Positions 3,760-60,231 of a stretch of 64,000 bases of DNA are shown here, piece by piece. The first letter of the stretch is position 1, and each line of letters starts with the position of its first letter. Source of the stretch: Octopus vulgaris (Eukaryota); the NCBI GenBank assembly GCA_951406725.2, contig OX597824.1, forward strand, positions 99,448,001 through 99,512,000. Direction: 5' to 3'. The position numbers were made by a program, and so were the translations under genes. The notes beneath the pieces were generated by a model that saw only the letters and a list, made by a program, of their open reading frames with translations, did not search any database and had not been told where the DNA came from.

Positions 3760-5186
3760 TATATATGTACAAAACCCACAGAGTAAGAATTTTCCTCCAT
3801 GACCAAGTAGAGTGAATGGCTTTTCTATGGATTTGAATAGGATTCAAGCATATTTGAACAGGTGACAAGTTTACATACATGTCTGCTATGATCCAGGTGT
3901 GTACATCTAAGCACCAAGTGTCTACATGAGAGGATCTCTCAAGGATAATAACAGAGTATTTAATGTTCCAAATATATATAGAATCAGTTTTTGCACTTCA
4001 TCCTTGTATGATAATAATGTGTTCGTAAGACATTCAGCTCATTAGTGCAATGGACTCCGTGCCACGAATGTCTTCACGGCCACAAGTACCTGAACCTTTA
4101 AACCTAAACAAGCCAATAGCTTTGTTTCTAAATTCAGTGAACAAACTGTTTGCTTATCAGTTAAAAATCACACAAACACAACAGCACTCCCACATATTCA
4201 CTTTCTCTTCTTATATGTGCATATAACCACACACAACACACACGCACTTTTTCAATCCACCACTCGGCTTCATAACTCTGTATCACACTTTTCTCTCTCT
4301 CTATTTCTCACTTCCTCTTTACTGACACACACTTCTCTTACTGATTACCTCCCCTTACTCTCATCTCTGTAAAGTAATCCCCCCCCCACTTCTATCATGA
4401 CATTGATTTACACTATGGACTTTCAACTATTTTACACTCTTTTTCAGCTCTTAACTTGTTCAACACAGCTACCTCTTCTCCATTGGCCTTACCAGATTTT
4501 CCTCACTATTATCATTTCTCCACCCCATCAAACATCGCTGGACATTTTTTCCAGTTTGGTAGTTTTTATAAAAAAAATTTCTTATAATCCTCTCTCCTCT
4601 TCCCAGAACTAATAACTTTTCTCTCTTTTCCCTTTCTTCCATGTAAAACCATTTCCCACTCACACTAATCTCACCCTCCACATTCTTCTTCCTTTCCATT
4701 TGCCTGTTTCCACCTCCTCACATCCATGCTTTCTTCATACACACTAAATGATTACAAACATTCACATTAAACTATGTTACGATACTTTCACCCTTTCATA
4801 TCTCTACAAACACACATCACATTAGAATACAGGCACCACGCTCCACAAAAGCTTCTTTACAAACACACACACACACACTCCTCCACTTGCTCCCTCCTCC
4901 TTTCTTAGTTTGCTCCCACATTCCCATCTGCTTTCAAACTCCTCATCTTTGTGTTTCTTCTTTCACAGATTATTCTTGTCTCACATCTGTTATGCTTTTC
5001 TGTTCCTTCATCAGAAGGGACAGAAATGTTACCACTCTTTCTGTCAAAGCATTAACCGAGTATATTTGTTAAAACTTGCCCCTCTTGTGTTGACTTTTTT
5101 TATTCTTCATTGAATTTACACTGTGTGTGTGTGTGTGTTGTGTGTGTGTTGTGTGTGTGAAAAATCTGAGTAGAAAGTAAAATTAA

Positions 5187-6371: not shown

Positions 6372-9300
6372 CAACAAAAACAAGAAGAAGAAAAAAAGCA
6401 AATTTTAAACAAGTGAGGGGAATCAAAAATTCTAACATCTTTTTTCTTTTCAGAAAGGAATCGGTAAATGACTTGTGAGAGCCATACAAGCCATGTCCAG
6501 GGATGCCATGAGTAATGTGAAAGCGTTAGCAACAAGTACAGCAATGAATTAAGGGTGCAGATAGGAGTTCAGAAGGGTTTGATTCTCAGTTCCCTACTAT
6601 TCATCATAGTCTGCCAGGCTAACAGAGAAATTTAACACTTTTGTCTATGGAAACTCTTATGCTGTTAACCTTCTTAGAGCTGAATCTGTAGGAGAATTAA
6701 AAGAAATTTCAGGTGTGGAAGCAAAATCTGAGCTCAAAGGACCTTGAAATTAACTTAGTAAAGACCAAAGTTCTGGTAAGCATGAAAATAAATTGCTACT
6801 CCTTTAGTAGTAAAATGGCTTTGATCAATATGTAGAAAAGGTGTGGGAGGAAATTCCACAGGTGTAGTCAGTGCAAGCTAAGGACACATAAGATGTGCAG
6901 TGGAACTACAGGAAGATTAACAGACGGAAAAAAAAACTTTGTCTGTGGCAGATGGTAGGAACCATAAGCACTAAGAGCATATCAGAAATAGACTTTCTGA
7001 AATACCCAGGAGGATCTTTACGAATTATTAGATAGTTTATGTTACCTAGCTGACTTAATTAGCAGTGGAGGAAGTTGTTCAGAAACAATAGCTGTTAGAA
7101 TGATAAGCTGGAAAAAGCTTAGTTATTACTCCTGTTAATAACAAAAGGTCTCTCTCTCTCTCAGAGTAAAAGGCAGACTGAAGTGTGTTGGTGAACGGAA
7201 CTTTAAAACCACCCTGTGATCTCTGGATGTCTTCAGTTGGGTGATTTAACACATTTTTTCATGGCATTCAGACCAAACCCTTCTGTCAGGTGTCAACCAC
7301 ATGCTAAATGATATTAAAATGTGGGCCAAAGTTTTCAACACCTGAGTACTATAATTTCTACTTTTGGATCAGGACGATGAACTGCAATAGTGTGGGTTTC
7401 AATAGATCATAGTTTTTCAGTATCTTCCTTCAAAATCTAAGTTATATACTAGAAATAGATGCTAACACTTAAATTTTTTGTGCCCACTGTTTCTGGTGCC
7501 AAAAGGCAAATGACAGAAGGGATAAAATCCATCACTTGGTTTACGAATCAGAAGCCACTGCAATGTTATCAAGTAGGTGTTTCGTCTTGTGTTTTACTAC
7601 AAATACATGATTTACAAAGTTTCTTGCACTGCCATCATCAAGAAGGGCAACCACTATTTTACTGTTTAGTCTATTAACAACAATAGTTATTGCAAAGAAC
7701 AATGGAGAAGAAGAGGAGAGGTTGTAGGATGGGGAAATGGTGTGAGTTTCTTGCTAGATTGATGTACTTTGGCAAAATGCTCCATTTTGTTACATAAGCT
7801 GCATCCCACATATTTGGCTGACTGCTTATTTTTACAGGGCCCAATAAACATTTTAGCCCTAAAACAGCCAAGGTTGAAGGTTCTGAGTCTGACATCATTA
7901 TTTCCTCTTCAAGTCAGTCGAGAGTTTCCCTGAGTAACCTGCATTGGTTGCGTAACACCTCTCATAGGTTCATCACTATTTTTGTGCATTTTACTCCTGC
8001 TGGTCCCCTTTTACAGCTTTTCCTCCCTCACCCTCTCTCTTGTCATTAGTGTCTCTTTCTCATTCCCCTTATACTATGACTGTCCCTGTCATAACATCCA
8101 TACCATTAGTCTCTCTCTTCATCACTTCTCTATTTCTCCTTCTTCTTCCCCATCATATGCTCCCTCTGTTGCTCAAGTTGCCTTCAATAGAGACAACCAT
8201 AGAGCAATGACAATCCTTTTGTCTTGCAGTGTACCAGACAACAACCTTTCTAGAGTTGGGGGCCCCAATAAAATGTACCCAGTATGCTTTGAAAAGTGGT
8301 TGGTGCTAGGAAAAGAAACCACGTCCCAAATGAGATATAAGCAAGATGTGTTCCTATTTCATCTACTAGGGCAGTAACTCTAAATAAGAACTGATTCATC
8401 AGACTATGACAAACTGCCCAATTTCTGTTAGCATGTAAAAAAAAGAGAGAGAAAGAGAGAGAGAGAAAAAAAGATATATAAATGGATACCAGGAGAACCA
8501 GCAATAGAGTGACTGGTATGGATGACAGCTGGGGGAAGAAGTGTGAAGTTATCCAAGATGTGGAAGTAAGGAAGACTAATCTAAGGATACTGGAGCTGAC
8601 AAAAACATAACCAAGGGCTATTAAGAGGGTGGGTTACTGTGCAGGGTAAGATCAGTCCAACCCATGACAGTATAGAAAAGCAGACATAAAATGACAATGA
8701 CAGTGATGACAGATATGGATCAATTAATAATTAAAAATATCAAGAATAACTTTGTTGAAAAAAATAACATTGCATTATTTATGATAATAATTTATTATAA
8801 TTCTTATCAAAGTAATCATCATCATCATCATCATTGTCATTTAACGTCCACTTTCCATTCTGGTATGAGTTGGATGGTTTGACTGAGGATTGGCAAGCCA
8901 GAAGGCTGTCCCAGGCTCCAGTCTGAGCTGGCAAGGTTTCTACAGCTGAATGCCCTTCCTGATGCCAACCTCTCCAAGAGTGTAGTGGGTGCTTTTTATG
9001 TGCCATCAGCACAAGGGCCAGTCAGGCTGCACTGGCATCAACTATTCCTTGAATGGTGCTTTTTATGTGCCACCGGCACGGGAGCCGGTACTGATAATGA
9101 CCACACTTGAATGGTGCTTTTTACGTGCCACTGGTCAAGGGAAGTCACTGTGGAGATGAGCTGACAATGGCCATAAAGATTCACTTAGATTGTATGATGG
9201 TTGATTAGATGTTGCCTGAGAGAACATCGTCACTGATGTGATAAGAAACTGAGACAGTGAAATTCACAACTGTTTTGTTCATTTTCCCTGCTGACCTCGT

Positions 9301-12300
9301 ATAAACTGTCCACTCCAATGGCCACGATGTTGAGTATTCCAGTTGATCCAATCAATGGAACCTGCAGGTGGCTGCCCTAACATGCTGTATGGGTCACAGC
9401 AGTTTCAAGCACCCACGGTACCCCTTTTAGCTAATTTAATTTTGAATTCATAACAGTTGAAGTCTGGGTAGAGAGAAGGATGGAGGGGTACTTAATGGTA
9501 ACGCCTGGAGACTTGAGTGGTACACAGGTGATGGTATTGGTAGTAGTAGTAGAAGTGGTGGAGGTAGTGGCTGATGTAGTAGAAGAGACAAAGGGTTTAT
9601 ATTGGTGAACCACTGGTTGAAGTGTGTTGGTGAACGGAACTTTCAAACCACCCTGTGATCTCTGGATGTCTTCAGTAGGCATTCAGACCAAACCCTTCCG
9701 TCAGGTGTCAACCACATCAATTTTACCAACCTCCATCTTGAGTTGAGCCCTGATCCTCCTCCTCCTCCTCCTTTCTCTGTTGCTGAGACTTATTGAAATA
9801 AATATTTGGAGACTTGAAAACACTGAAAAAGTAATAAATCACCAAAGATGCTTACATCATTACCAGCAAGTGCTGCACTGTCAAGGTGACTATAATGTTT
9901 ATTTAATTCTTCTCTCAGGCGACGTTGTGCCTTCTTGTGAGGATGTAGAAGCATGGCTTGAAAATTGACTGGTAGGCCATATCTGAATTGAAAACAGTTT
10001 GAATTAATTTAAAGATCACTTACAAAAGATTGTACTGTAAATAAAAGACAAGTACCACAGTTTATTAGGCTTTTAATGATGTATCTACTTTAGGTACAAT
10101 ATATAGATTGCTATTTTTAACTAATACTGCTTGTTGCACATAATGAAATTTTATTCAGCCTGCTGGCTAATTATGACATCAGTAATTTTGTATGCAGTTG
10201 CCAGTGGATACTTGCTATTGACAAAGCCCAAAGGGCAGAAATGCCCATTTAGCAATGACACCATTGCTGTGGGGCAATTTTTGTCTGCTACAGATAGATT
10301 TCTGTGTCTTCGTTTGTTTTTGTTTTTAAAGACTAATGTCTATAAGAGATGTTGCCTCAGGATGAATACTGCAGTTTATCAAGTTTTCAATGGTGTATCT
10401 GCCTTAAGTATGATACACAGATTGCTATTTTGAATGAAAACTATTTTTGTTGCTCATAACAGTATATATATATTTGGAGTCTGGTTCACCAGACCTCAGT
10501 CAAATCGTCCAACCCATACTAGCATGGAAAGCGGACGTTAAATGATGATGATGATGATGATATATATAAATGTGCATACATATATATTTCTGTTTAAAAA
10601 TAGTAAGAATATATGTAAGAAGTATATATGTGAGCACATATAAATAGATATATGTGTGTGTATATATAAAACTATATGCACTACCTTGAATGTGGATATA
10701 TGAAAGAATATGTAAGTATGAAGGGAAGAGTTTACCTACAAACTTATTTTTTTTAATGTTTCAAAAAAGGAGAGAGGCAGGAGTGGAAGGCACGAGTGGA
10801 ATGGCACTGGATGCTTTGTTGTAACAGGCAGAACGTACTTTGGATCATTTTCAAGTAAACAGTCCACAAGCACAGAAATGCTCTGTCTTTATCACTTTAA
10901 TCACATTACAATACATTACAATACATTATTATTTCTAAATACTTAATTTCATTTTTTATTTTTCAATAATACGATCATGAAAATAGAATTGCAATTTACA
11001 GTTTTCCTGAGACGGGAGTTTTCTTTTTTCTGTGTCTGTTTGTTTGTTTCTGTGTTTTGTCTGTCACTATATCTATGGGTTAGTTTTGTTTGCAAATTGC
11101 TGAAAATAACAGTATCAATTCTTGCACAAAGTGAAATAATGAAGGACAAATTCAAAACCACCACCAGACAAACCACATGTTCCAACTTTAATGGATGACA
11201 GTGATTGTGCAACTTGTTAATTATATCATCTCACCAACGGATTACGAGAGTAATGATACGTGGAAATAATTGTTGTGATTTGAAATAAAGAACGTTGTTC
11301 AATCTGTTTTCTCTTATCGATCTCTTTGTGTAAACTCAACGGATTCTATGGAATTCCAGATGCATATCCAGTGACAAGAGCATTCCAACTATATGATGAC
11401 ATCTGGTTGCCAATAACTATGGATGAGCTTTGCATAGCATATTATGAGGATTTAATCCAAATTTTATTCAACTACACAAATGTGTGTGTGTGTGTGTGTG
11501 TGTATATACACACACATATATATGACAGCAAACAACCAAATAATTCCAAATGAATAAAATAAATGAATGAAGTACTTTATACAAACCTTAAGACTGATTC
11601 AACAAAAACTCTTAAAGCTTTCACATGGATCCAAGCTGCAAAACACTCACCAAAATTTATTTTCAACCATTTCACCAAGGGACCCTAATAAAACAAAGGA
11701 ATATAAAATGTAGAGTTTACAAAAAAATCTATAAGTACAGACACCAACACATGACAGTGATACCAGGGTATCTACCAGAAATTGAGGGGTATTTCCAACC
11801 AATACTGAGTGGTCTAACTCATGACCATTAATTAGATATGTACCTTTAGTTGCAGCCACACATTAAGGGTTTATTTACCAAACACGGGGTAGCACACAAC
11901 ACTGGTGGTGTACCACCAATCCATACAATGTTGGATGTGCCCATCAGTTTTGTAATACGACCGATTAGCCATAAAAATACATTTACATATTAACAGTCAT
12001 ACCGAACAACATAATGGTGGATTCCATTGTATGTATGGAGGCCTGTGGATTTGGTTCAAGAAATGAAGTGGAATCAACACTCCTGGAGTTGTGCTGTTGA
12101 AGGAAACAAATGCAAAAATGATTTGACAATTTTTTCAGTACCAACTTCAGGAAACAGGCTTGTCACTTGATCGTCTACCAATCAGACAAACGCCAAAGAA
12201 AGATCGACTTCATTCTCACAAGGAAATGAGATAGACAAATGCTAAAGTTTTTTCCTGGTGAAGAATGTACCACTGACCATAGACTAGTAAATTCAGAGTA

Positions 12301-15300
12301 AGAATTAGACAAGGGAAGGAAGACTGAAAGCTTAAAGAACCATCAAACAGTTAGAGAGATTCAGAGAAATTCTACTTGAAGCATTTGACATGAAGGAAGA
12401 AGAGATGGAAATTTACAGCATGGAAGACCACATGGAAGACCACATAGAAAACGGACGCTAAATGATGATGAAGACAACTGAGAGTTGAATTCCTCTGAGA
12501 CACTGCACTGAGGGCACCAAACCAGATCTATGAATGTTGTAAGGCTGCTGCCAGATGGAAGAATGACATGAGACTGGAATAGTGCAGTAGACAGAGGCTA
12601 TAGAAGCTAAGAACAGTCCAGAATAAGCCAGGAAGGAAGGAGCCTGAAGAGAATTATATAAAGTAACAAGAAATGTAGTTAGTGAGGGGAGAAGCAGAAA
12701 GTAAAAGGTTTGGCAAAATTCTGTGGCATGAAGTGTTTTGAAAATAAAGCAGAAAATTAGAAAATGAAAACCTTGTTGGATTTGAAATGGCAATGGCATA
12801 CCTTCTCTTACAACAGTAAGAAAGATGCATTGAAAGGCTATTAAAAGAGATTACTAAACAAAAGGTGTCGACACAACAGAGTGTGTGTGCGTGTGAGGGT
12901 AATCCATTTAAGCAGTATGGTAGATAAAGTAATTAAAGATATGAAGATAGGAAAGGTACCTGGTCTATGAGGGATGGCCAGCGACATGATTAAAATATCT
13001 AGTGGAGTAGGGCAGAGTTGATCAGGTAGTACAAGAAGACATCAGAATGAAATAAATGCAGTAGAAGAACTTGACTAAGAGCATGCTCTATATTTAGTAT
13101 TTGTTGATTTGGAGAAGAGTTGGGTTGGCATGCTCTGTAATCTGGTCATCACTGATGTCGATTAATAGACTGTGAGAAGTGTACAAACCATGTAAAAGGC
13201 ATATCCAGGAATGAAGTCAGGGATTCCTCAGTCCTCACTCACTTCTATTTATTATTTTGTCCAACAGCAGTACAAGGTTAACTCTCGTATGTTGATGACT
13301 TCACACACAATAAAGCTGGATATATCTATATTAAACAGGGAAAGACTTTCGCTGCAGTAACTGTTTTGGAAGGGAAATTCTCCTTAAAGACAGTGTATTG
13401 AATGACAGCTTTAGCTTGCTGCCAATGAAGTGTAACATCACAGAAATACATATCCCACAGTCTAATAGTGCCGTTTATAGCCCAGATTAGTGTATTTTCA
13501 CACTGTCTATAAAGAGAATTTCTCTCTCAAGACAGTTACCACAGCAAAGATTTTTTCTTGTTTGAGTGTGCACAAACATCTCTATATATATAAAAGGCAG
13601 TTTGTCTGTCTGTCTGTGCGTGTGCCTGTCAGGTTGTACCCTCACCCTGACCACGGCTTTCAACCGATTCTGATGAAACTTGACACACACATAGCCCAAT
13701 GTCATAATTCAAAACTAACATAGCGAAATTTTTGAAAAGTTCCCCCAGTTCTGAAAAAAATCGATAAATTCGACATGGGGTCGAGAATCTAAGCTTTTCA
13801 TACGCAACACATTTTCTGTTGTAGTTTTCGCAACTTGCAATCGATTTTCACCAAACTCATGGTGAAGCTTAATGTTACCCTAAGGAACTTAATTCTGACA
13901 TTAGCTTTCCATGCAATACCTTACCATCAGAAAAAAATCGATAAAATCATGCCATTTTGGGAAATCGCGTTCAAATTCAAGATGATATATTTTCGACAAT
14001 ATCTTTAACAAATTGGCAGGAATTTTTTTTGAAATTCACAGCGAGCATCATGTCTGCTCCAAGTAGCTATATGGCCCTTTTGATTCCAATAGGATACGTT
14101 ATTACTGGAAAAAATCGGTTAATTACATCATATGTGGTACACATAGCAAACCGATCTTTCTGCGATATTTTTTGAAAGTTCACATAGAATTTCCCTACAC
14201 CGATGTTGGACATCAAGTTTGCATTAAATGTCAAACTAACGACCTTTTGTCAATGCAGTTAACAAGTATTGGGAGAAATCGACAAAACCATATCACTTTG
14301 AGACCGACCATGATTTTACAAAATAACGGTTCAATGAGTACAAAAAAGGGTAAAAAGGTAAAGGGCATTGCTTATCGACAAAGTTTCTTACATACCCGGG
14401 CAACGCCGGGCTATGTTGCTAGTGTTTAATATAAACGTATATAGCTTTAGCTTTATTGATCACCATTTTATGTGGTTTTAATTGATTAGTTCTTATAGCC
14501 AAATCTATTGGAAGCAAAATCAAGAGCAAGGACTAAATTTCAATTGGCAGAAAAGAAGGAGAAACCTGCTACGATAAGGAAATGGCAGTGTTTATTTAAT
14601 TTGGAGAAAAGGTGTAAAATATGGATAAACAAGGTGTAGTGAAATGAAAGAAGATAGGGTTTCATATGTGGCAGGAATACAGGAGGACTTATTAGTTGGA
14701 ATAGAGAGGGAAATATACTGTTTGGAATACTTGGAAAGCTTGTGAGTGAGTGATTGATTGAGTGAGTGAGTGATTGAGTGAGTGAGTGAGTGAGAGAGTG
14801 AGTGAGTGAGAGAGATGAATAGCAATATGAATGATCAATGGTCAGAAAGTTTAAGGGAGGTCAAGAGTGAATGACCTGGCAGGTAGGGAGTGAGGGAGGG
14901 AGGCAAGTGCTTCCATCATACTCAATCTTCTGTAATTCCTCTGTTGGTCATGTTACCTTAAACGAATAGACTTAATACAGAGTAGTGAGGACTTGTTTGT
15001 CTTGTGCTAGTGCTCTGATAAAAACACATGCAATGCACTTTCTAAAATGGTTGAGGAATGAACAGAGAAAATATAGTCAAAACGACCACTTTAGTGGATA
15101 CGACAGCCTTTCTAGTGCTGGTGGTTTCACAATATGTCACTGTTACACTTTGTAAAGTGATTGATAGGGCATGTCTAAATAGAACACAGAGCAAGACATG
15201 GTCCCTGCAACCCATCTAGGAGAGCAGTAACTCTGAACAAGAGCTGATTGCGATGACTCCCCTAACTCATGCCAACATGGAAAGTGGATAGTAAAACGAT

Positions 15301-47708: not shown

Positions 47709-48690
47709 TATTTTCCGTCGAGAAGATTTTGATGACTGCAGAATAAATGATAATCAGATGGGACAATGTGCAGTGAATATTGTGGGTGAGGTATCATTTC
47801 CCATTCAAACTGCTCCAGACTTTCGAATGTCATCCTCGCTCTATGTGGCCAAGCATTATCCTGATGGAAGAACACCTTTCGTCTTGAAACCAAAGATGGT
47901 CATTTTTCTTCTAGAGCTGACTTAAGCCACTCAAGCTGCTCACAGTAGATCTCCTTTGTTATCAGTTGGTTTGGCTTTAAAAGTTCAGTCAACTAAACCT
48001 TTCATATCCCACCAAACAGTTAACAACTCCTTATGTGGATGAAGACCTTCTTTAGCCTGGGGTGCCAGTGTTTCTCCTTTCCCTACCCACTGTCTTTGCT
48101 GCTTGACATTTTTATAGAGAACCCATTTCTCGTCACCAGTCACTATTGGGTCCAAAAAAGGTTCATTCATGAGATGTGGCAGCAAAGATGAGCACACATT
48201 CACTCTCTGTACACAATTAGACTCAGAAAGTTTATGAGGAACCCATTGACCCAATTTGCTGACTTTTCTCATGGCATGCAGGTGTCAATGAATGGTTGAG
48301 TGACCAAATCCAAGCTTCTTTGCTAGTTCTTCAACAGTTATGACTGGATTTTGTTCCACCAGGGTATGCAGATCTTTCAGGATGAGGCTTGTCTTCTAGG
48401 CTTCTGGCCCCAAATTTCTGGAATCACTGTTGACACTGGCTTACACTTGTCTAATCCCTTTATACTACATTAATACTCCTCACACTTTCCGTTGTGTTGT
48501 TGCCTTTAATGAACTCATAAAGCAAAATATGTCGAATATGCTCCTTTGTCACTTCCATTATAGCTTTGAAAAAAGTGATAAAATTACTACCTGATTTCAT
48601 AGCTTTTTGATGTAGGCAGTCTATCCCATCCCCCTCCGAATTTTAGTTCATGCAATTGAAAAAAACTGCATTATTTATGGGATGACCCAA
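47709..48690 (-). mobile_element. defective mariner transposon, 3' end lost
   Basis: WVPHKL, IVTGDEKW, FHQDNAWPH, HPQYSLHIVPSDYHLF; TIR TTGGGTCATCCCATAAATAATGC next to TA at 48691. Confidence 0.9.
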
Positions 48691-49199
48691 TATAGACATA
48701 TATACACATACATATACATACATATATATATAGAGAGAGAGACATATATATATATATATGTGCATGCACACACATGCACACACATGCACACACACGCGCA
48801 CACACACACACACACACACATATCAGAAAATGGAGAAATTGATATGCAGATATTAGTTCAGTCAAAGATATTCAAATGCATCTTATATGGATTTGAGTAT
48901 CTTTGAATAAACTGATATCGAAATGTCAGTTTCTTCTTTTTCTTCCTTTTCTCATTCATAAAACCAGAGAAGTAAGATGCAAGCATCCCTCAAAGGATTA
49001 TAGGTCCTTGACATAATTATATATCTCAGGTTGAGTAAAAAGTAAGCAATGTTTTGAACCATGAAGAATTTGTACCAGGTTTTTGCAGAATTTTGAATTT
49101 TTAAAAACATTTTTTTGCAATTATCTGATAATACAGACATAGACTTGCCCAAATGCATCAATAAATTAACATTGATATTTTTTACACCGTTGTTACAAT

Positions 49200-50676: not shown

Positions 50677-51403
50677 ATATCTACTGGAAGAAATTAAGAA
50701 ATTATTTCAGTGACAGAGGGTTTGCTAATCCTGGTAAAAGGTAGACTGTATGAGATGTGGAAGCCATGTGATGCTACATGACAGTAAAACATGGAGCATT
50801 GATGTAAAAAATCTTATCGGAGCCTGGAGAATTGCCATCAGATCTCTTCATGGTGAATTTTCATAATGAAGAGAAACAAAAGGGAGTCGCAACATTCTGT
50901 ACAACACTTGAGTGTGTGCTGAGTGTGTGCTGAGTGTGTGCTGGAAAATTATCTTTTCTAAAATTTTAAAAATATCATTAAATATTTAATCATCGTTTAA
51001 TCACTATCAAGAAATGGCTGCCACTTCCAATTACTTCTTAATTATTGAGGATTGTCTGCGTTCTGGGATAAACAACAGTGTGTATCCACTTATATTAAAC
51101 TTATGTTTGCAAACATGGAACAATAGTAGTTATAAAGTATCTATCTGTCTGTCTGTCTGCTTCTCTCTCTCTCTCCCTCCCTCTCTCTCTCTCTCTATCT
51201 ATCTATCTGTCTCTGTCTGTCTTCTATCTGTCTATCTCTCTGTCTATCTGTCTGTCTGTCAATCAGTTAGTCTGTCTGTCTCTATCTGTCTGAGTGTCCA
51301 TCTATTCATCTATCTGCCTGTCTGTCTGTCTCTCTGTCTATCTGCTGATCTGTCTGTTTGTCTATCTACCTGCTTGTCTGTCTATCTTTCTGTCTGTCCA
51401 TCT

Positions 51404-52798
51404 TGATGGCAGAAATGATTTTGTCTGGTATCCCATAGAGCTTAAGGATTTCAAACATCTTGTACCTGCCTACAGAGTCGAACACTTTAGAAAAGTCTAC
51501 AAATACCATTGCAAGATCGCGATTAAATGCTTTTGATTCTTCAATAAGTCTGCGTAGGCATAGTATCTGGCTCAGCGTTGAGTGCCCATGTCTGAATCCA
51601 TTTTGGTTTTTTTGGAGCAAAGGTTCAACAAAAAGGACAAGACGATTTAGAATCAGTTTATTGTACAGTTTTGCAGCAATTGACATTAGAGATATACCCC
51701 TGTAGTTGGTGACGAGGGATAAATCGCCTTTTTTGGGTATTGGGATGATTTGAGACTGGTGCCAAATCTTTTGAGCAACAAAGGTGGAAAGTGTGTGGTT
51801 GCAAAGGTTGAGCAGAAGTGTGTGAAATCTATCATCCTTCCAAATTATAGCTGGGATGTTGTCAGGACCAAATGCCGGAATACTGCAAGGAGACACACTC
51901 ACCCCATTTCTTTTCATCATTGTTGTTGACTATGTGCTACGTATGTCAGTTGATACCATCTCTGGCAAGGGCTTTGAAATAAAACCAAGAAGAAGTTCCA
52001 GACACCCAGCTGAATACTTGACAGACATTGACTTTGCTGACGACATCGCTCTTATCAGTGATTTTCTCTCCAATGCCCAGTCTCTTTTACAATCTCTCGA
52101 ACAAGCCTCAAATTGTGTAGGTCTTTACCTCAATGAGGCCAAGACTGAATATATAAACAAGTGCCTGTCCAACAGTGATTGCATCATCCACACTCTCAAC
52201 AATGCGCCCTTAAATATGGTTTCTGATTACAAATATCTTGGGTCATACATAACATCATCTGGAAAAGACTTTCTAACTAGAAAGGGTATGGTCTGGTCAG
52301 CCTGTAATGACATGCATAAGATCTGGTCATCAAATCTAAGTAGAGACTTCAAACTTGAAATCTTCAAAGCCACAGTTGAACCAATTCTACTATATGGCTC
52401 AGAAACCTGGACGTTATCAAAGAAGCTTGAGACGCGGTTGGATGGAACCTACACTCGCCTCCTTATGAGAGCTCAAAATCTCTCATGGAAGCGTCATCCA
52501 ACCAAAATGCAAATATATGGGAAACTACCACCTGTGTCATCTCTTGTGAAAGGTAGGAGAGTCCAGTTTGCCGGACATTGTTGTAGAGCTGAAAAAGAGG
52601 CAATTTCTACTCTTCTCCTCTGGAAGCCATCTACTCGCAATCCCAGAGGGAGCACACTCTCCTACCCTGATGTAATCTCCAGGGAAACAGGCATCAAGCA
52701 ACAGGACCTCCGTAATGCCATGATGGACCATGAAGTCTGGCGTAGCATGGTAAATTCCATTGTCTCGACCACGGTCGAACAATGATGAATGATGGTGA
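51404..52798 (+). mobile_element. RTE-clade LINE with 5' inversion (51404-51875 inverted; 51873-52798 sense), 13-bp TSD TGTCTGTCCATCT
   Basis: Minus ORF: GPDNIP..IIPIPKKGD..NYRGISL..QNGFR..FVDFSKVFD. Plus ORF: GILQGD..FADDIAL..YKYLGS..LLYGSETW. TSD at 51391-51403 and 52799-52811. Confidence 0.92.
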
Positions 52799-58130: not shown

Positions 58131-58203
58131 GTCTCCATGATGTAGTGGTTTTCACATCTGCTTTACATACAGGAGGTCATGAGTTCGATTCTCAATGGAA
58201 CCT
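58131..58203 (+). pseudogene. tRNA-Val(TAC) pseudogene
   Basis: GTCTCCATGATGTAGTGGTTTTCACATCTGCTTTACATACAGGAGGTCATGAGTTCGATTCTCAATGGAACCT resembles metazoan tRNA-Val-TAC. Mismatches in the acceptor (2), anticodon (1) and T (1) stems; T-run at 58208-58213. Confidence 0.8.
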
Positions 58204-58277: not shown

Positions 58278-58572
58278 TTATTTATAGTGTATGTGTGTGT
58301 GTCTGTCTCTCTCTATCTCTATATATATATGTATATAAACCAGGGTGCATTCCGTTAATTGATAAGTAAAAATAAAGTATAGTAAATGAAAACACATGAA
58401 ATGAATGTACTCTGTCTGTCTTTTATTGTATGTTTTTTTCATTTGTGCATTTACTATACATTTTTTTTACTTATTATATCACTGACAGATTGATTCAGGA
58501 AATGACAACAGGAAGATGTAATTATATATATATATATATTATTTATTGAAAGGTCATAATACATGTATTAAA

Positions 58573-58625
58573 GTGCTACAAATAGTTTCATATGTTGAGA
58601 GAACTCAATCATATTCTTCAGGCAC
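58573..58625 (-). ncRNA. minimal type I hammerhead ribozyme motif
   Basis: GUGC-CUGAAGA-[AUAUG(A)UUGAG-UUCU-CUCAACAUAU]-GAAA-C-UAUUU-GUA|GCAC: full core, 4-bp stem I, 10-bp stem II, 2-bp stem III. Confidence 0.7.
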
Positions 58626-58695
58626 AAACCACAAATCATAACGAACAAAAGATTGAATAAATAGAAGAAATTTTGTAGTTTATGATATGTGGTTT

Positions 58696-58749
58696 GTGCC
58701 TGAAGAATATATTTCAGTGTTTCTCAACATATGAAACTATTTGTAGTGC
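58696..58749 (+). ncRNA. second hammerhead motif (opposite arm of the same palindrome)
   Basis: GUGC-CUGAAGA-AUAU...AUAU-GAAA-C-UAUUU-GUA|GUGC; stem I kept through two G-U wobbles, stem II shortened. Confidence 0.55.
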
Positions 58750-58858
58750 TTCAATATATGTATTGTGACCTTCAAATTAATAATATTTATCTCTCGCCAG
58801 GTGGAGTACTTTTTTGTTGAATTTTCTATCACAGATCAGTGCATTATATATATATATA

Positions 58859-59041
58859 AAAATAAGCAGCAAGGATATCCAGAGGTAATGCAGTACGATC
58901 GTTTCATGCAACTCCATTTGATTGAACAATGCAATCATTACATCAATTTTGAATTGATGTAATGATTGCATTGTTCAATTAAATGGAGTTGCATGAAACA
59001 ATCGTACTGCATTACCTCTGGATATCCTTGCTGCTTATTTT
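58859..59041. repeat. near-perfect palindrome, 90-bp arms, 3-nt loop
   Basis: Arms 58859-58948 and 58952-59041, two mismatches seen. Confidence 0.95.
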
Positions 59042-59126
59042 GATTTTAATCTCCTTATTTTGAAATTGTATGGATAATACCATACTAAATTCTGGTGCCT
59101 CAACACAAGTACCATATTCATCTGAA

Positions 59127-59181
<55 letters not shown>

Positions 59182-59227
59182 CGTTTGTAAAGAAACAAGT
59201 TTGTTTCTGAAGCATTGAAATGTATTG

Positions 59228-59275
59228 TAGAACAAGTAGAGAGATAAATTTTATTCAACGCTTTCATACAGAACA

Positions 59276-59309
<34 letters not shown>

Positions 59310-59375
59310 GATCAAATAACTTTTTTCTTTTTAAAAGCAGAAAAAGAATAAAGAAAGGAAAAAAGTTATTTGATC

Positions 59376-59413
<38 letters not shown>

Positions 59414-59459
59414 TGTTCAGTATCTATGCGTTGAATAAAATTTATCTTTCTACTTGGTC

Positions 59460-59461
<2 letters not shown>
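59228..59461. repeat. imperfect palindrome with symmetric internal (TA)n tracts
   Basis: CAAGTAGAGAGATAAATTTTATTCAACGC / GCGTTGAATAAAATTTATCTTTCTACTTG and AAGGATCAAATAACTTTTTT / AAAAAAGTTATTTGATCCTT. Confidence 0.9.
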
Positions 59462-59514
<53 letters not shown>

Positions 59515-60231
59515 CAGTGAGTGCATATACTGATACATACACACACATTTGTAGACATGCATATATAAACGTATAATGTACATATATGTACATATGTATG
59601 CATACATGTATCTATAAGTGTACAAATGTGTGTGTATATATATATATATACATGAACATCACACACACACACACACACACACATCGGTGGTAACTGTTGT
59701 TCATGTTTGAGAATTGAAGTTGATTCAGACTTGGTGTTTATAACTGAAAAGGGATCAATCTTCATAAAGATGGGAACAAACATCACCTTTCGGCCTATCG
59801 TTATATTTCATGAAAACACTCAACATTAACAACATTCTCCCGCAAACAGGTTAAAGGAACACAACTCTTATGCCCCTCATTTGCCCATCCACATTTCCCT
59901 CTTATTTTATTCTCGATTTCTCTCACAGAGTAGCCATGTTTTTTAGGGGCCTGAATGATTGCTGGATTATGCAGGGTACACTATACAAGCCCCCACCCCT
60001 GTACACTGAGCTATCTGAGCATGAAACTTAAAGTAGCTCACTGCTCGATTGAGCATGTTTTTTTCCATTATACTTTCAAATGAACAGTGCACTATACATA
60101 CATACATATATACATACATATAAACATACATACATATGTATATACACACACACATAATATATACATACACACATACATACATATATGCATACATACATAT
60201 GTATATACACACACACACATAATACATACAT

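What the first reader, a model, noticed from the sequence alone, without database searches (positions are those of the whole stretch)
58361..59461. Four unrelated palindromes packed into 1.1 kb among (TA)n tracts, three with hammerhead traces
Seen: inverted repeats at 58361-58474, 58538-58785, 58859-59041 and 59228-59461. They share little primary sequence, but the last three show the grammar GAAA-Y-(4-5 nt)-GUA. Inference: several families of ribozyme-bearing PLE-derived mini-elements repeatedly target (TA)n and integrate as inverted dimers. This would create a hotspot that could act as a hairpin-RNA/endo-siRNA or ADAR-substrate locus, and possibly a widespread undescribed repeat class.
Basis: partly seen in the sequence, partly recalled or inferred. 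Interest (0 to 1): 0.72.

Follow-up and report, generated by a model that had tools for sequence, protein, structure and literature searches.

The report
Stacked Penelope palindromes edited by ADAR
The four mirror-image repeats are cut-short end pieces of four different repeat families, likely inserted one after another into TA-rich DNA by Penelope-type jumping-gene enzymes; such palindromes are common across this genome, and one probable RNA copy of this spot carries the clustered A-to-G changes typical of the RNA-editing enzyme ADAR.

Summary
The four palindromes are real. Each belongs to its own dispersed family and has Penelope-like-element (PLE) anatomy: a 5'-truncated copy with a 45-115 nt tail, joined head-to-head to an inverted tail-less copy, beside (TA)n. 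P2 is the 3' end of a Hydra-clade PLE with a full hammerhead in each arm. P3's family has one, but this copy lost half of it. P4's 'trace' is not a hammerhead: its family is a 291-nt non-coding unit with a tRNA-like fold. P1's family carries a scrambled hammerhead upstream of the part kept here. Such palindromes are common (39 in 600 kb of random DNA), so this is a dense cluster, not a unique locus. One contig from a probable RNA run spans P1-P2 with 21 minus-strand A-to-G changes, all in the arms: an ADAR signature. The scan already noted PLE palindromes, the short/long-end rule, tRNA-bearing PLEs and scrambled hammerheads on other DNA of this genome. Known kind; the ribozyme-less tRNA-like P4 unit is the least described part.

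The parts
58340..58360 (-). P1 tail, cut short; family tail is about 45 nt
   Evidence: Matches the family tail; preceded by (TA)n
58361..58410 (-). P1 tailed arm, about 79% identical to family consensus (oldest of the four)
58425..58475 (+). P1 inverted tail-less arm, ending at the family's short end; 7 A-to-G-type changes in the X6 contig
58523..58538 (.). (TA)8 beside the short end of P2
58538..58670 (-). P2 inverted tail-less arm with a complete type I hammerhead (core 58621-58615, GAAA 58589-58586, position-17 A at 58577); X6 changes fall on A15.1 and A17
58680..58785 (+). P2 tailed arm with a complete type I hammerhead (core 58700-58706, GAAA 58733-58736); 3' end of a Hydra-clade PLE
58786..58844 (+). 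P2 tail, about 57 nt
58845..58858 (.). (TA)7 shared by the long end of P2 and the short end of P3
58859..58949 (-). P3 inverted tail-less arm with only the 3' half of the hammerhead (GAAA at 58905)
58952..59043 (+). P3 tailed arm, 97% identical to family (youngest); CUGANGA lost at the fold-back joint
59044..59130 (+). P3 tail, about 85 nt; other copies carry up to about 115 nt
59129..59178 (.). (TA)25 between the tails of P3 and P4
59179..59227 (-). P4 tail, about 50 nt
59228..59345 (-). P4 tailed arm of the 291-nt tRNA-bearing unit, truncated just 3' of the tRNA-like hairpin; internal TA run expanded (59277-59306)
59352..59461 (+). P4 inverted tail-less arm ending at the family's short end; internal TA run expanded (59379-59412)
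58422..58840 (-). Span of one contig of run X6 (RNA by the tool's guess) with 21 T>C (minus-strand A>G) changes, all within palindrome arms

Best explanation
The four palindromes are 5'-truncated end pieces of four unrelated dispersed repeat families, each a tailed copy joined head-to-head to an inverted tail-less copy, and they were likely inserted independently, one after another, into (TA)n by Penelope-like retrotransposon enzymes. Mechanism (inferred): the PLE protein cuts both strands of TA-rich DNA and primes reverse transcription from both ends, at two fixed start sites on the RNA. The two short cDNAs meet at their truncation points, which gives one long (tailed) arm and one short arm. 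The flanking (TA)n then serve as landing sites for later insertions; by divergence P1 is oldest and P3 youngest. P2 is the 3' end of a coding Hydra-clade PLE (shown). P3 is probably of the same clade. P1 and P4 are non-coding passengers whose driver was not identified. Read-through transcription folds each insertion into a ready-made hairpin whichever strand is read, and ADAR likely edits it (seen in one contig). No function for the host is implied.
For: Each arm is a multi-copy family (first-look candidates 515, 1045, 382, 27). Each family has two discrete 3' ends; among copies with an inverted partner, one arm is short and one long in 16 of 17 (P3) and 6 of 7 (P2); in P4, 15 of 18 partners end near the short site and none at the long site. 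In 10 of 29 P2 copies an RT + GIY-YIG ORF ends 281-388 bp upstream on the same strand, with the Hydra motifs CxCX5C, DKT, CxxC, CxH and no cysteines inside GIY-YIG (against PMC8557442). The hammerhead core pattern is intact in 23 of 29 P2 copies. 24 of 39 random-sample palindromes lie within 70 nt of (TA)4+, against 731 of 5000 random intervals. Two RT start sites defining the tail, and cleavage and extension of both strands, were shown in vitro for a PLE (PMC11167929). Editing: 21 of 106 arm adenosines changed against 0 of 35 outside (Fisher p = 0.002), none with a 5' G; locus-matching DNA contigs of other runs keep T at 15 of the 21 sites.
Against: No ORF was linked to P1 or P4. P3 is tied to an endonuclease end in a single locus, about 2.6 kb upstream (L177, E 3e-6). 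Family copies were the 25-30 best-scoring hits, and P4 copies were selected for their tail. Only 3 of 38 random palindromes hold a hammerhead by my descriptor (which also missed P3's), so most genome-wide palindromes are not shown to be PLE-derived. The editing rests on one contig of depth 5.6 from a run only guessed to be RNA, from another sample; 5 of the 21 sites are also common family variants and 4 of its 25 differences were not listed. No host gene or promoter was found for the minus-strand transcript.
Confidence: 0.85

Rival explanations
1. The palindromes are MITEs or fold-back DNA transposons with long terminal inverted repeats that target TA.
For: Short non-coding inverted repeats flanked by TA; some copies have two arms around a spacer.
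Against: The ends are asymmetric (one tail). Many copies have a single arm (23 of 30 P2, 12 of 29 P3), and the spacers are further inverted element sequence with variable joints. P2 continues into an RT-GIY-YIG ORF.
Confidence: 0.04
2. Single PLE copies inserted first, and the palindromes arose later by DNA breakage and fold-back repair at (TA)n cruciforms.
For: Long (TA)n tracts flank every arm, and joints show small overlaps or gaps.
Against: Repair after insertion would copy the same end into both arms. Instead one arm ends at the short site and the other at the long site in 16 of 17 P3 pairs, in either order.
Confidence: 0.05
3. The cluster is a selected hairpin-RNA, endo-siRNA or editing locus with a host function.
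For: Three scan-level palindromes lie within 1.2 kb against a maximum of 2 in 60 random stretches; there is a hyper-edited contig.
Against: 76-526 triple clusters and 1-14 quadruples are expected genome-wide by uniform chance; flanks of family copies hold 21 palindromes against 14 expected (p = 0.06). The arms have decayed in step with their age. The Rfam miRNA matches are generic hairpins below gathering score.
Confidence: 0.05
4. The palindromes are assembly fold-back artefacts.
For: P3 arms are 97% identical; no listed piece bridges the centre of P3, and P4 had no cover.
Against: Arms differ by 3-31%. DNA contigs of two other runs bridge the centre of P1, and one X6 contig bridges all of P2. 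The same architecture recurs at dozens of loci with different joints.
Confidence: 0.01

Closest known systems
Hydra clade of C-terminal EN+ Penelope-like elements (Craig et al. 2021, PMC8557442; passages read)
   Same: RT plus C-terminal GIY-YIG, CxCX5C linker, DKT, CxxC/CxH, no CCHH, canonical hammerhead, (TA)n insertion, inverted 5'-truncated copy and one-sided tail (P2; probably P3).
   Different: Tails here are longer (45-115 nt against the 30-40 bp described). P3's family has more than 2.5 kb of non-coding, internally duplicated sequence before the hammerhead. The paper's supplementary consensus files were not read, so these families may already be catalogued.
Minimal type I hammerheads of PLE pLTRs, including opposite-strand pairs 100-700 bp apart (Cervera and de la Pena 2014, PMC4209133; parts 1-2 of 4 read)
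   Same: P2 is such an opposite-strand pair; P3's family has a palindromic stem III.
   Different: P3's stem II starts with a U-U mismatch and has a loop of about 50 nt. P4 has no hammerhead.
PAc Poseidon element in vitro (Frangieh et al. 2024, PMC11167929; parts 1-2 of 4 read)
   Same: Two internal RT start sites define the tail; both DNA strands are cut and extended at AT-rich sites; hammerhead cleavage is not needed for insertion.
   Different: In the parts read, the paper does not state that the two arms of one inverted insertion use different start sites, which the copies here show.
Animal non-LTR retrozymes (PMC7229834, passages; bioRxiv 10.64898/2026.07.22.740005, part 1 of 5 and passages) and Schistosoma SMalpha SINE-like repeats (PMC8490949, passages)
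   Same: P4 is a 291-nt non-coding head-to-tail unit within the 170-400 nt range, with PLE-type ends.
   Different: P4 has no hammerhead, carries an internal tRNA-like fold with an 18-bp extended acceptor stem, and reached at most about 1.5 monomers in 30 copies.
ADAR hyper-editing of repeats (Porath et al. 2017, PMC5625713; passages read)
   Same: Clustered A-to-G changes in long hairpins with 5' G depleted; Penelope is heavily edited in lizard, a palindromic repeat in frog, and octopus has very high hyper-editing.
   Different: That study had no repeat annotation for octopus, so the share due to self-palindromic PLE insertions was not given in the passages read.
Type-SGC non-circularly permuted hammerheads (Eckert et al. 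2023, PMC10085705; passages and sections 13 and 15 read)
   Same: The P1 family shows block order S-G-C with conserved core bases and stems I and III.
   Different: Stem II does not follow CUGAUGA directly, the host is an animal repeat, and the motif is absent from the window's truncated copy.

Membership tests
Hydra-clade PLE (P2) | RT ORF with C-terminal GIY-YIG directly upstream of the terminal repeat | tested here: met
   10 of 29 copies, ORF end 281-388 bp upstream on the same strand; 63 homologues of about 700 aa. Pfam gave no family for these pieces.
Hydra-clade PLE (P2) | CxCX5C linker, DKT, CxxC and CxH, no CCHH cysteines within GIY-YIG | tested here: met
   Translations compared with the text
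Hydra-clade PLE (P2) | N-terminal RWK motif and placement in the Hydra clade by phylogeny | not tested
   No full-length copy was retrieved and no tree was built
Hydra-clade PLE (P3) | ORF linked to the terminal repeat | tested here: inconclusive
   One locus (L177) with a Cys-linker GIY-YIG end about 2.6 kb upstream, E 3e-6
PLE-type insertion (P1-P4) | Variable 5' truncation, inverted adjacent copy, one-sided tail, microsatellite target | tested here: met
   partners in 7/30 P2, 17/29 P3, 18/30 P4, 6/21 P1 (three of the P1 partners look spurious)
Type I hammerhead (P2) | CUGANGA, GAAA, NUH and stems I-III | tested here: met
   Both arms pass the descriptor; 23 of 29 copies keep the core pattern
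Type I hammerhead (P3 window copy) | CUGANGA core present | tested here: not met
   Lost at the fold-back joint; the full pattern is in 13 of 28 family copies
Type I hammerhead (P4) | CUGANGA core conserved on the sense strand | tested here: not met
   No descriptor hit on the consensus; 0 of 21 copies
Hammerhead (any) | Self-cleavage | not testable with these tools
   Needs an in vitro assay
Non-LTR retrozyme (P4) | 170-400 nt head-to-tail monomer | tested here: met
   291 nt; 26 of 30 copies run back into the preceding tail
Non-LTR retrozyme (P4) | Type I hammerhead in each monomer | tested here: not met
tRNA-derived SINE (P4) | tRNA-related region with cloverleaf | tested here: met
   Rfam tRNA above gathering score in 7 of 20 loci; 91% of cells paired, 7 pairs with two-sided changes, 25 of 30 copies aligned
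tRNA-derived SINE (P4) | tRNA region forms the 5' end of the element | tested here: not met
   It is internal (positions 71-144) and followed by T5 at 154, upstream of both 3' ends
MITE | Same terminus at both ends, both arms in most copies | tested here: not met
MITE | Fixed target-site duplication | not tested
   Not readable inside (TA)n; no empty sites available
Type-SGC hammerhead (P1 family) | Blocks in S-G-C order with core bases and stems I and III | tested here: met
   48 of 60 copies aligned; core positions 79-100% conserved; compensatory GC/AU at one pair of stem III (24/22) and one of stem I (21/18), which reflects one subfamily split
Type-SGC hammerhead (P1 family) | Stem II strand directly after CUGANGA | tested here: not met
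   The strand before GAAA pairs with the strand after stem III instead, with one-sided variation only
ADAR hyper-editing | One-directional A>G cluster confined to dsRNA, 5' G depleted | tested here: met
ADAR hyper-editing | Absent from the DNA of the same individual; read-level confirmation in RNA | not testable with these tools
   Only contigs from different samples were available

The most novel reading that the evidence does not exclude
The P4 family is a protein-less, ribozyme-less 291-nt RNA unit spread by Penelope enzymes in which a tRNA-like fold takes the place of the hammerhead: host tRNA-processing nucleases cut the multimeric transcript into templates. The longest copies begin at the 3' end of the preceding tRNA-like module (positions 138, 139, 149 against 144), none of 30 reaches further back, and a T5 run rules out simple polymerase III copying of the template.
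Probability: 0.15. Interest if true: 0.72.

Novelty: new variant of a known kind. Interest (0 to 1): 0.42.

Why it matters
The cluster itself is ordinary retrotransposon litter, but it points to two testable things. First, each Penelope-type insertion is its own long hairpin on either strand. Palindromes of this size occur at about 0.65 per 10 kb (roughly 1.8 x 10^5 per genome by extrapolation), and the one probable transcript seen is hyper-edited only in the arms. If most are PLE-made, they could be a main source of the very high non-coding A-to-I editing reported for octopus, and editing would hit the elements' own hammerhead cores. Second, P4 extends the range of passengers that PLE enzymes carry to a tRNA-structured unit without a ribozyme. 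The one-short, one-long rule also gives a genomic read-out of two-ended priming.

Tried and rejected
Reading P4's left flank as a minimal hammerhead: the CUGAAG there is private to this copy. Rfam found no hammerhead family in the window, only generic miRNA-type hairpins below gathering score (150 of 157 rows shown). I first called P2 Penelope/Poseidon from recalled motifs and corrected it to Hydra. Pfam did not label the P2 ORF pieces or four homologues. A search for a minus-strand host gene (123 ORFs of 55 aa or more, window 36-64 kb plus 40 kb beyond) found only transposon domains; short exons would be missed. No ORF was found for P1 or P4, and P4's tRNA module was not found outside P4 loci in 1.5 Mb. 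No RNA holder was listed on record for the stretch, which is no evidence on expression. P4 had no cover, and no listed piece bridges P3's centre. Isolated P2 hammerheads do not fold better than shuffles (z -0.3 and -0.07). The edited contig could be an edited DNA retrocopy, but the genome search with the P1-spacer stretch found it whole only at this locus. Literature searches for a tRNA-bearing PLE passenger and for permuted hammerheads in retrotransposons listed nothing that describes them; Lunse 2017 was not held, and supplements of PMC8557442 and PMC13282606 were not read.

Full report
Setting. The window lies on contig C11 of a 2.8-Gb animal genome in 227 contigs. I treat it as octopus-like, an inference from genome size and from earlier notes of the scan that say so.

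Observation. The four inverted repeats are present: half-against-half matches are 42/61, 101/126, 88/91 and 100/122 columns, and even P1 folds at z = -6.2. Their family consensuses share no sequence. A full descriptor finds a complete type I hammerhead in each arm of P2 and none elsewhere in the region.

Each palindrome is one insertion of a dispersed family. Genome searches gave 515, 1045, 382 and 27 first-look candidates for P3, P2, P4 and P1; at most 40 were scored and 25-30 fetched per search. Every family has two discrete 3' ends, a short one and a long one 45-115 nt further on. Many copies have an inverted partner at the 5' side (P2 7/30, P3 17/29, P4 18/30, window copies included). One arm is short and the other long in 16 of 17 P3 pairs and 6 of 7 P2 pairs; in P4, whose copies were selected for the tail, 15 of 18 partners end near the short site and none at the long site. 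In the window the tails lie at 58340-58360, 58786-58844, 59044-59130 and 59179-59227. This is the PLE pattern described by Craig 2021 (PMC8557442, passages) and Arkhipova 2013 (PMC3846280, passages). Frangieh 2024 (PMC11167929, parts 1-2 of 4) showed that the tail is the sequence between two RT start sites and that both strands are cut and extended. That the two arms come from priming at both DNA ends is my inference.

P2. In 10 of 29 copies an ORF ends 281-388 bp upstream of the short end. It matches 63 proteins of about 700 aa and shows RT and GIY-YIG regions with CxCX5C, DKT, CxxC, CxH and no internal cysteines, the Hydra-clade signature. The hammerhead core pattern is intact in 23 of 29 copies. 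Opposite-strand hammerhead pairs of this spacing were reported by Cervera 2014 (PMC4209133, parts 1-2 of 4).

P3. The family hammerhead has stem I, both core boxes and a palindromic stem III, but a weak stem II that my descriptor missed; 13 of 28 copies match the core pattern. The window copy folded back inside loop II and lost CUGAAGA. Upstream lie more than 2.5 kb of non-coding, internally duplicated sequence and, in one locus, a Cys-linker GIY-YIG end. Five clear copies in 600 kb suggest some 10^4 copies.

P4. No hammerhead. The family is a 291-nt head-to-tail unit: 26 of 30 copies run back into the preceding tail, to at most about 1.5 monomers. Positions 71-144 form a tRNA-like cloverleaf, above Rfam's gathering score in 7 of 20 loci, whose acceptor stem is extended by 18 bp. 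On 25 of 30 copies (5 truncated or deleted rows left out) 91% of cells pair and 7 pairs change on both sides, two of them in 7 sequences each; related copies can inflate such counts. A T5 run follows 10 nt after the module, so a polymerase III transcript would stop before either 3' end. About a third of tail-selected copies, and the window copy, stop at the 3' foot of this hairpin, which fits RT arrest. The three longest copies begin at the 3' end of the preceding module, which fits either arrest or RNase Z-type cutting; this is a weak hint. No ORF was linked. Searches listed no description, and the scan's notes had no look-alike sequence, though they describe coding PLEs with tRNA-type heads.

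P1. The window keeps only the last part of the family (79% identity). 35 of 60 loci fetched with the upstream motif continue into that part. Upstream, hammerhead core bases occur in the order cleavage site, GAAA, CUGAUGA, with stems I and III supported by one compensatory pair each between two subfamilies (48 of 60 rows; 12 with indels, truncation or near-duplication left out). This resembles type SGC (PMC10085705, sections 13 and 15), except that stem II does not follow CUGAUGA. The scan had noted this motif elsewhere.

Hotspot test. In 60 evenly spread 10-kb stretches the same scan found 39 palindromes (2 in 30 shuffled stretches); 24 of 39 lie near (TA)4+ against 14.6% of random intervals, and at most 2 fall within 1.2 kb. 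The window cluster scores 3, with P1 below threshold. Uniform chance predicts 76-526 triples genome-wide, and flanks of 138 family loci show only a weak excess (21 against 14, p = 0.06). Full hammerheads are enriched in palindromes (5 in 13.5 kb against 3 in 586 kb; shuffles 0.01) but occur in only 3 of 38 (one 5.9-kb case left out).

Editing and artefact test. One 456-nt contig of run X6 (RNA by the tool's guess, depth 5.6) spans 58422-58840 with 25 differences, of which 21 are listed, all T>C. All 21 fall in the arms (21/106 against 0/35 adenosines, p = 0.002); the 5' neighbour is never G (13/106 expected pool) and is U in 11. Locus-matching DNA contigs of X1, X2 and X3 keep T at 15 of these sites; 5 sites are also common family variants. 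Two changes hit A15.1 and A17 of the minus-strand hammerhead. This matches ADAR hyper-editing as described by Porath 2017 (PMC5625713, passages), but it is one contig from a different sample. The same call bridges the centres of P1 (DNA, two runs) and P2 (X6), against an assembly artefact; P3's centre and P4 were not bridged. No host gene was found.

Verdict. Four independent PLE-type insertions of different age, stacked in shared (TA)n tracts and probably edited when transcribed. The architecture is known, and the scan has met it many times in this genome. The P4 unit and the possible genome-wide contribution to editing are what remain open. Unread supplements of PMC8557442 and PMC13282606 (passages only) may already list these families.

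Noticed in passing
window 58131-58203 (+): Decayed tRNA copy (Rfam tRNA 30.8 bits; not called by ARAGORN) between (TG)n and (CA)n; about 85% identical to members of a dense array of similar sequences on C25 near 30.58-30.70 Mb.
   Followed up: partly
L243-L302, around position 1500 of each: P1-family scrambled hammerhead in two subfamilies, hundreds of candidates (577 and 338); L095 and L101 show it in a non-coding head-to-tail unit of about 790 nt.
   Followed up: partly
L221:909-2384: 1.5-kb palindrome, 97% arm identity, with three identical canonical hammerheads; looks like a young retrozyme-type array.
   Followed up: no
L205:613, L211:7049, L213:451, L225:3683, L228:2738: Further hammerhead families in random DNA, at least three sequence types.
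   Followed up: no
L030:1654-2646 (+): PLE-type RT and a CX4CX2C linker next to a P3 copy across (TA)n; probably a separate PLE clade using the same landing site.
   Followed up: no
window 13333-13563 and 48825-48943; L239:4447-4626 and 6981-7168; L241:9624-9806: More palindromes of the same size class in and beside the window.
   Followed up: no
window 59515-59545 (+): Short hairpin directly after the (TG)n tract that follows P4.
   Followed up: no
window 51369-52782, 47988-48642; L240:571-1641, 4072-4723, 8163-9356: LINE-type RT fragments and mariner-type transposase fragments; no host-gene domain seen on the minus strand.
   Followed up: no
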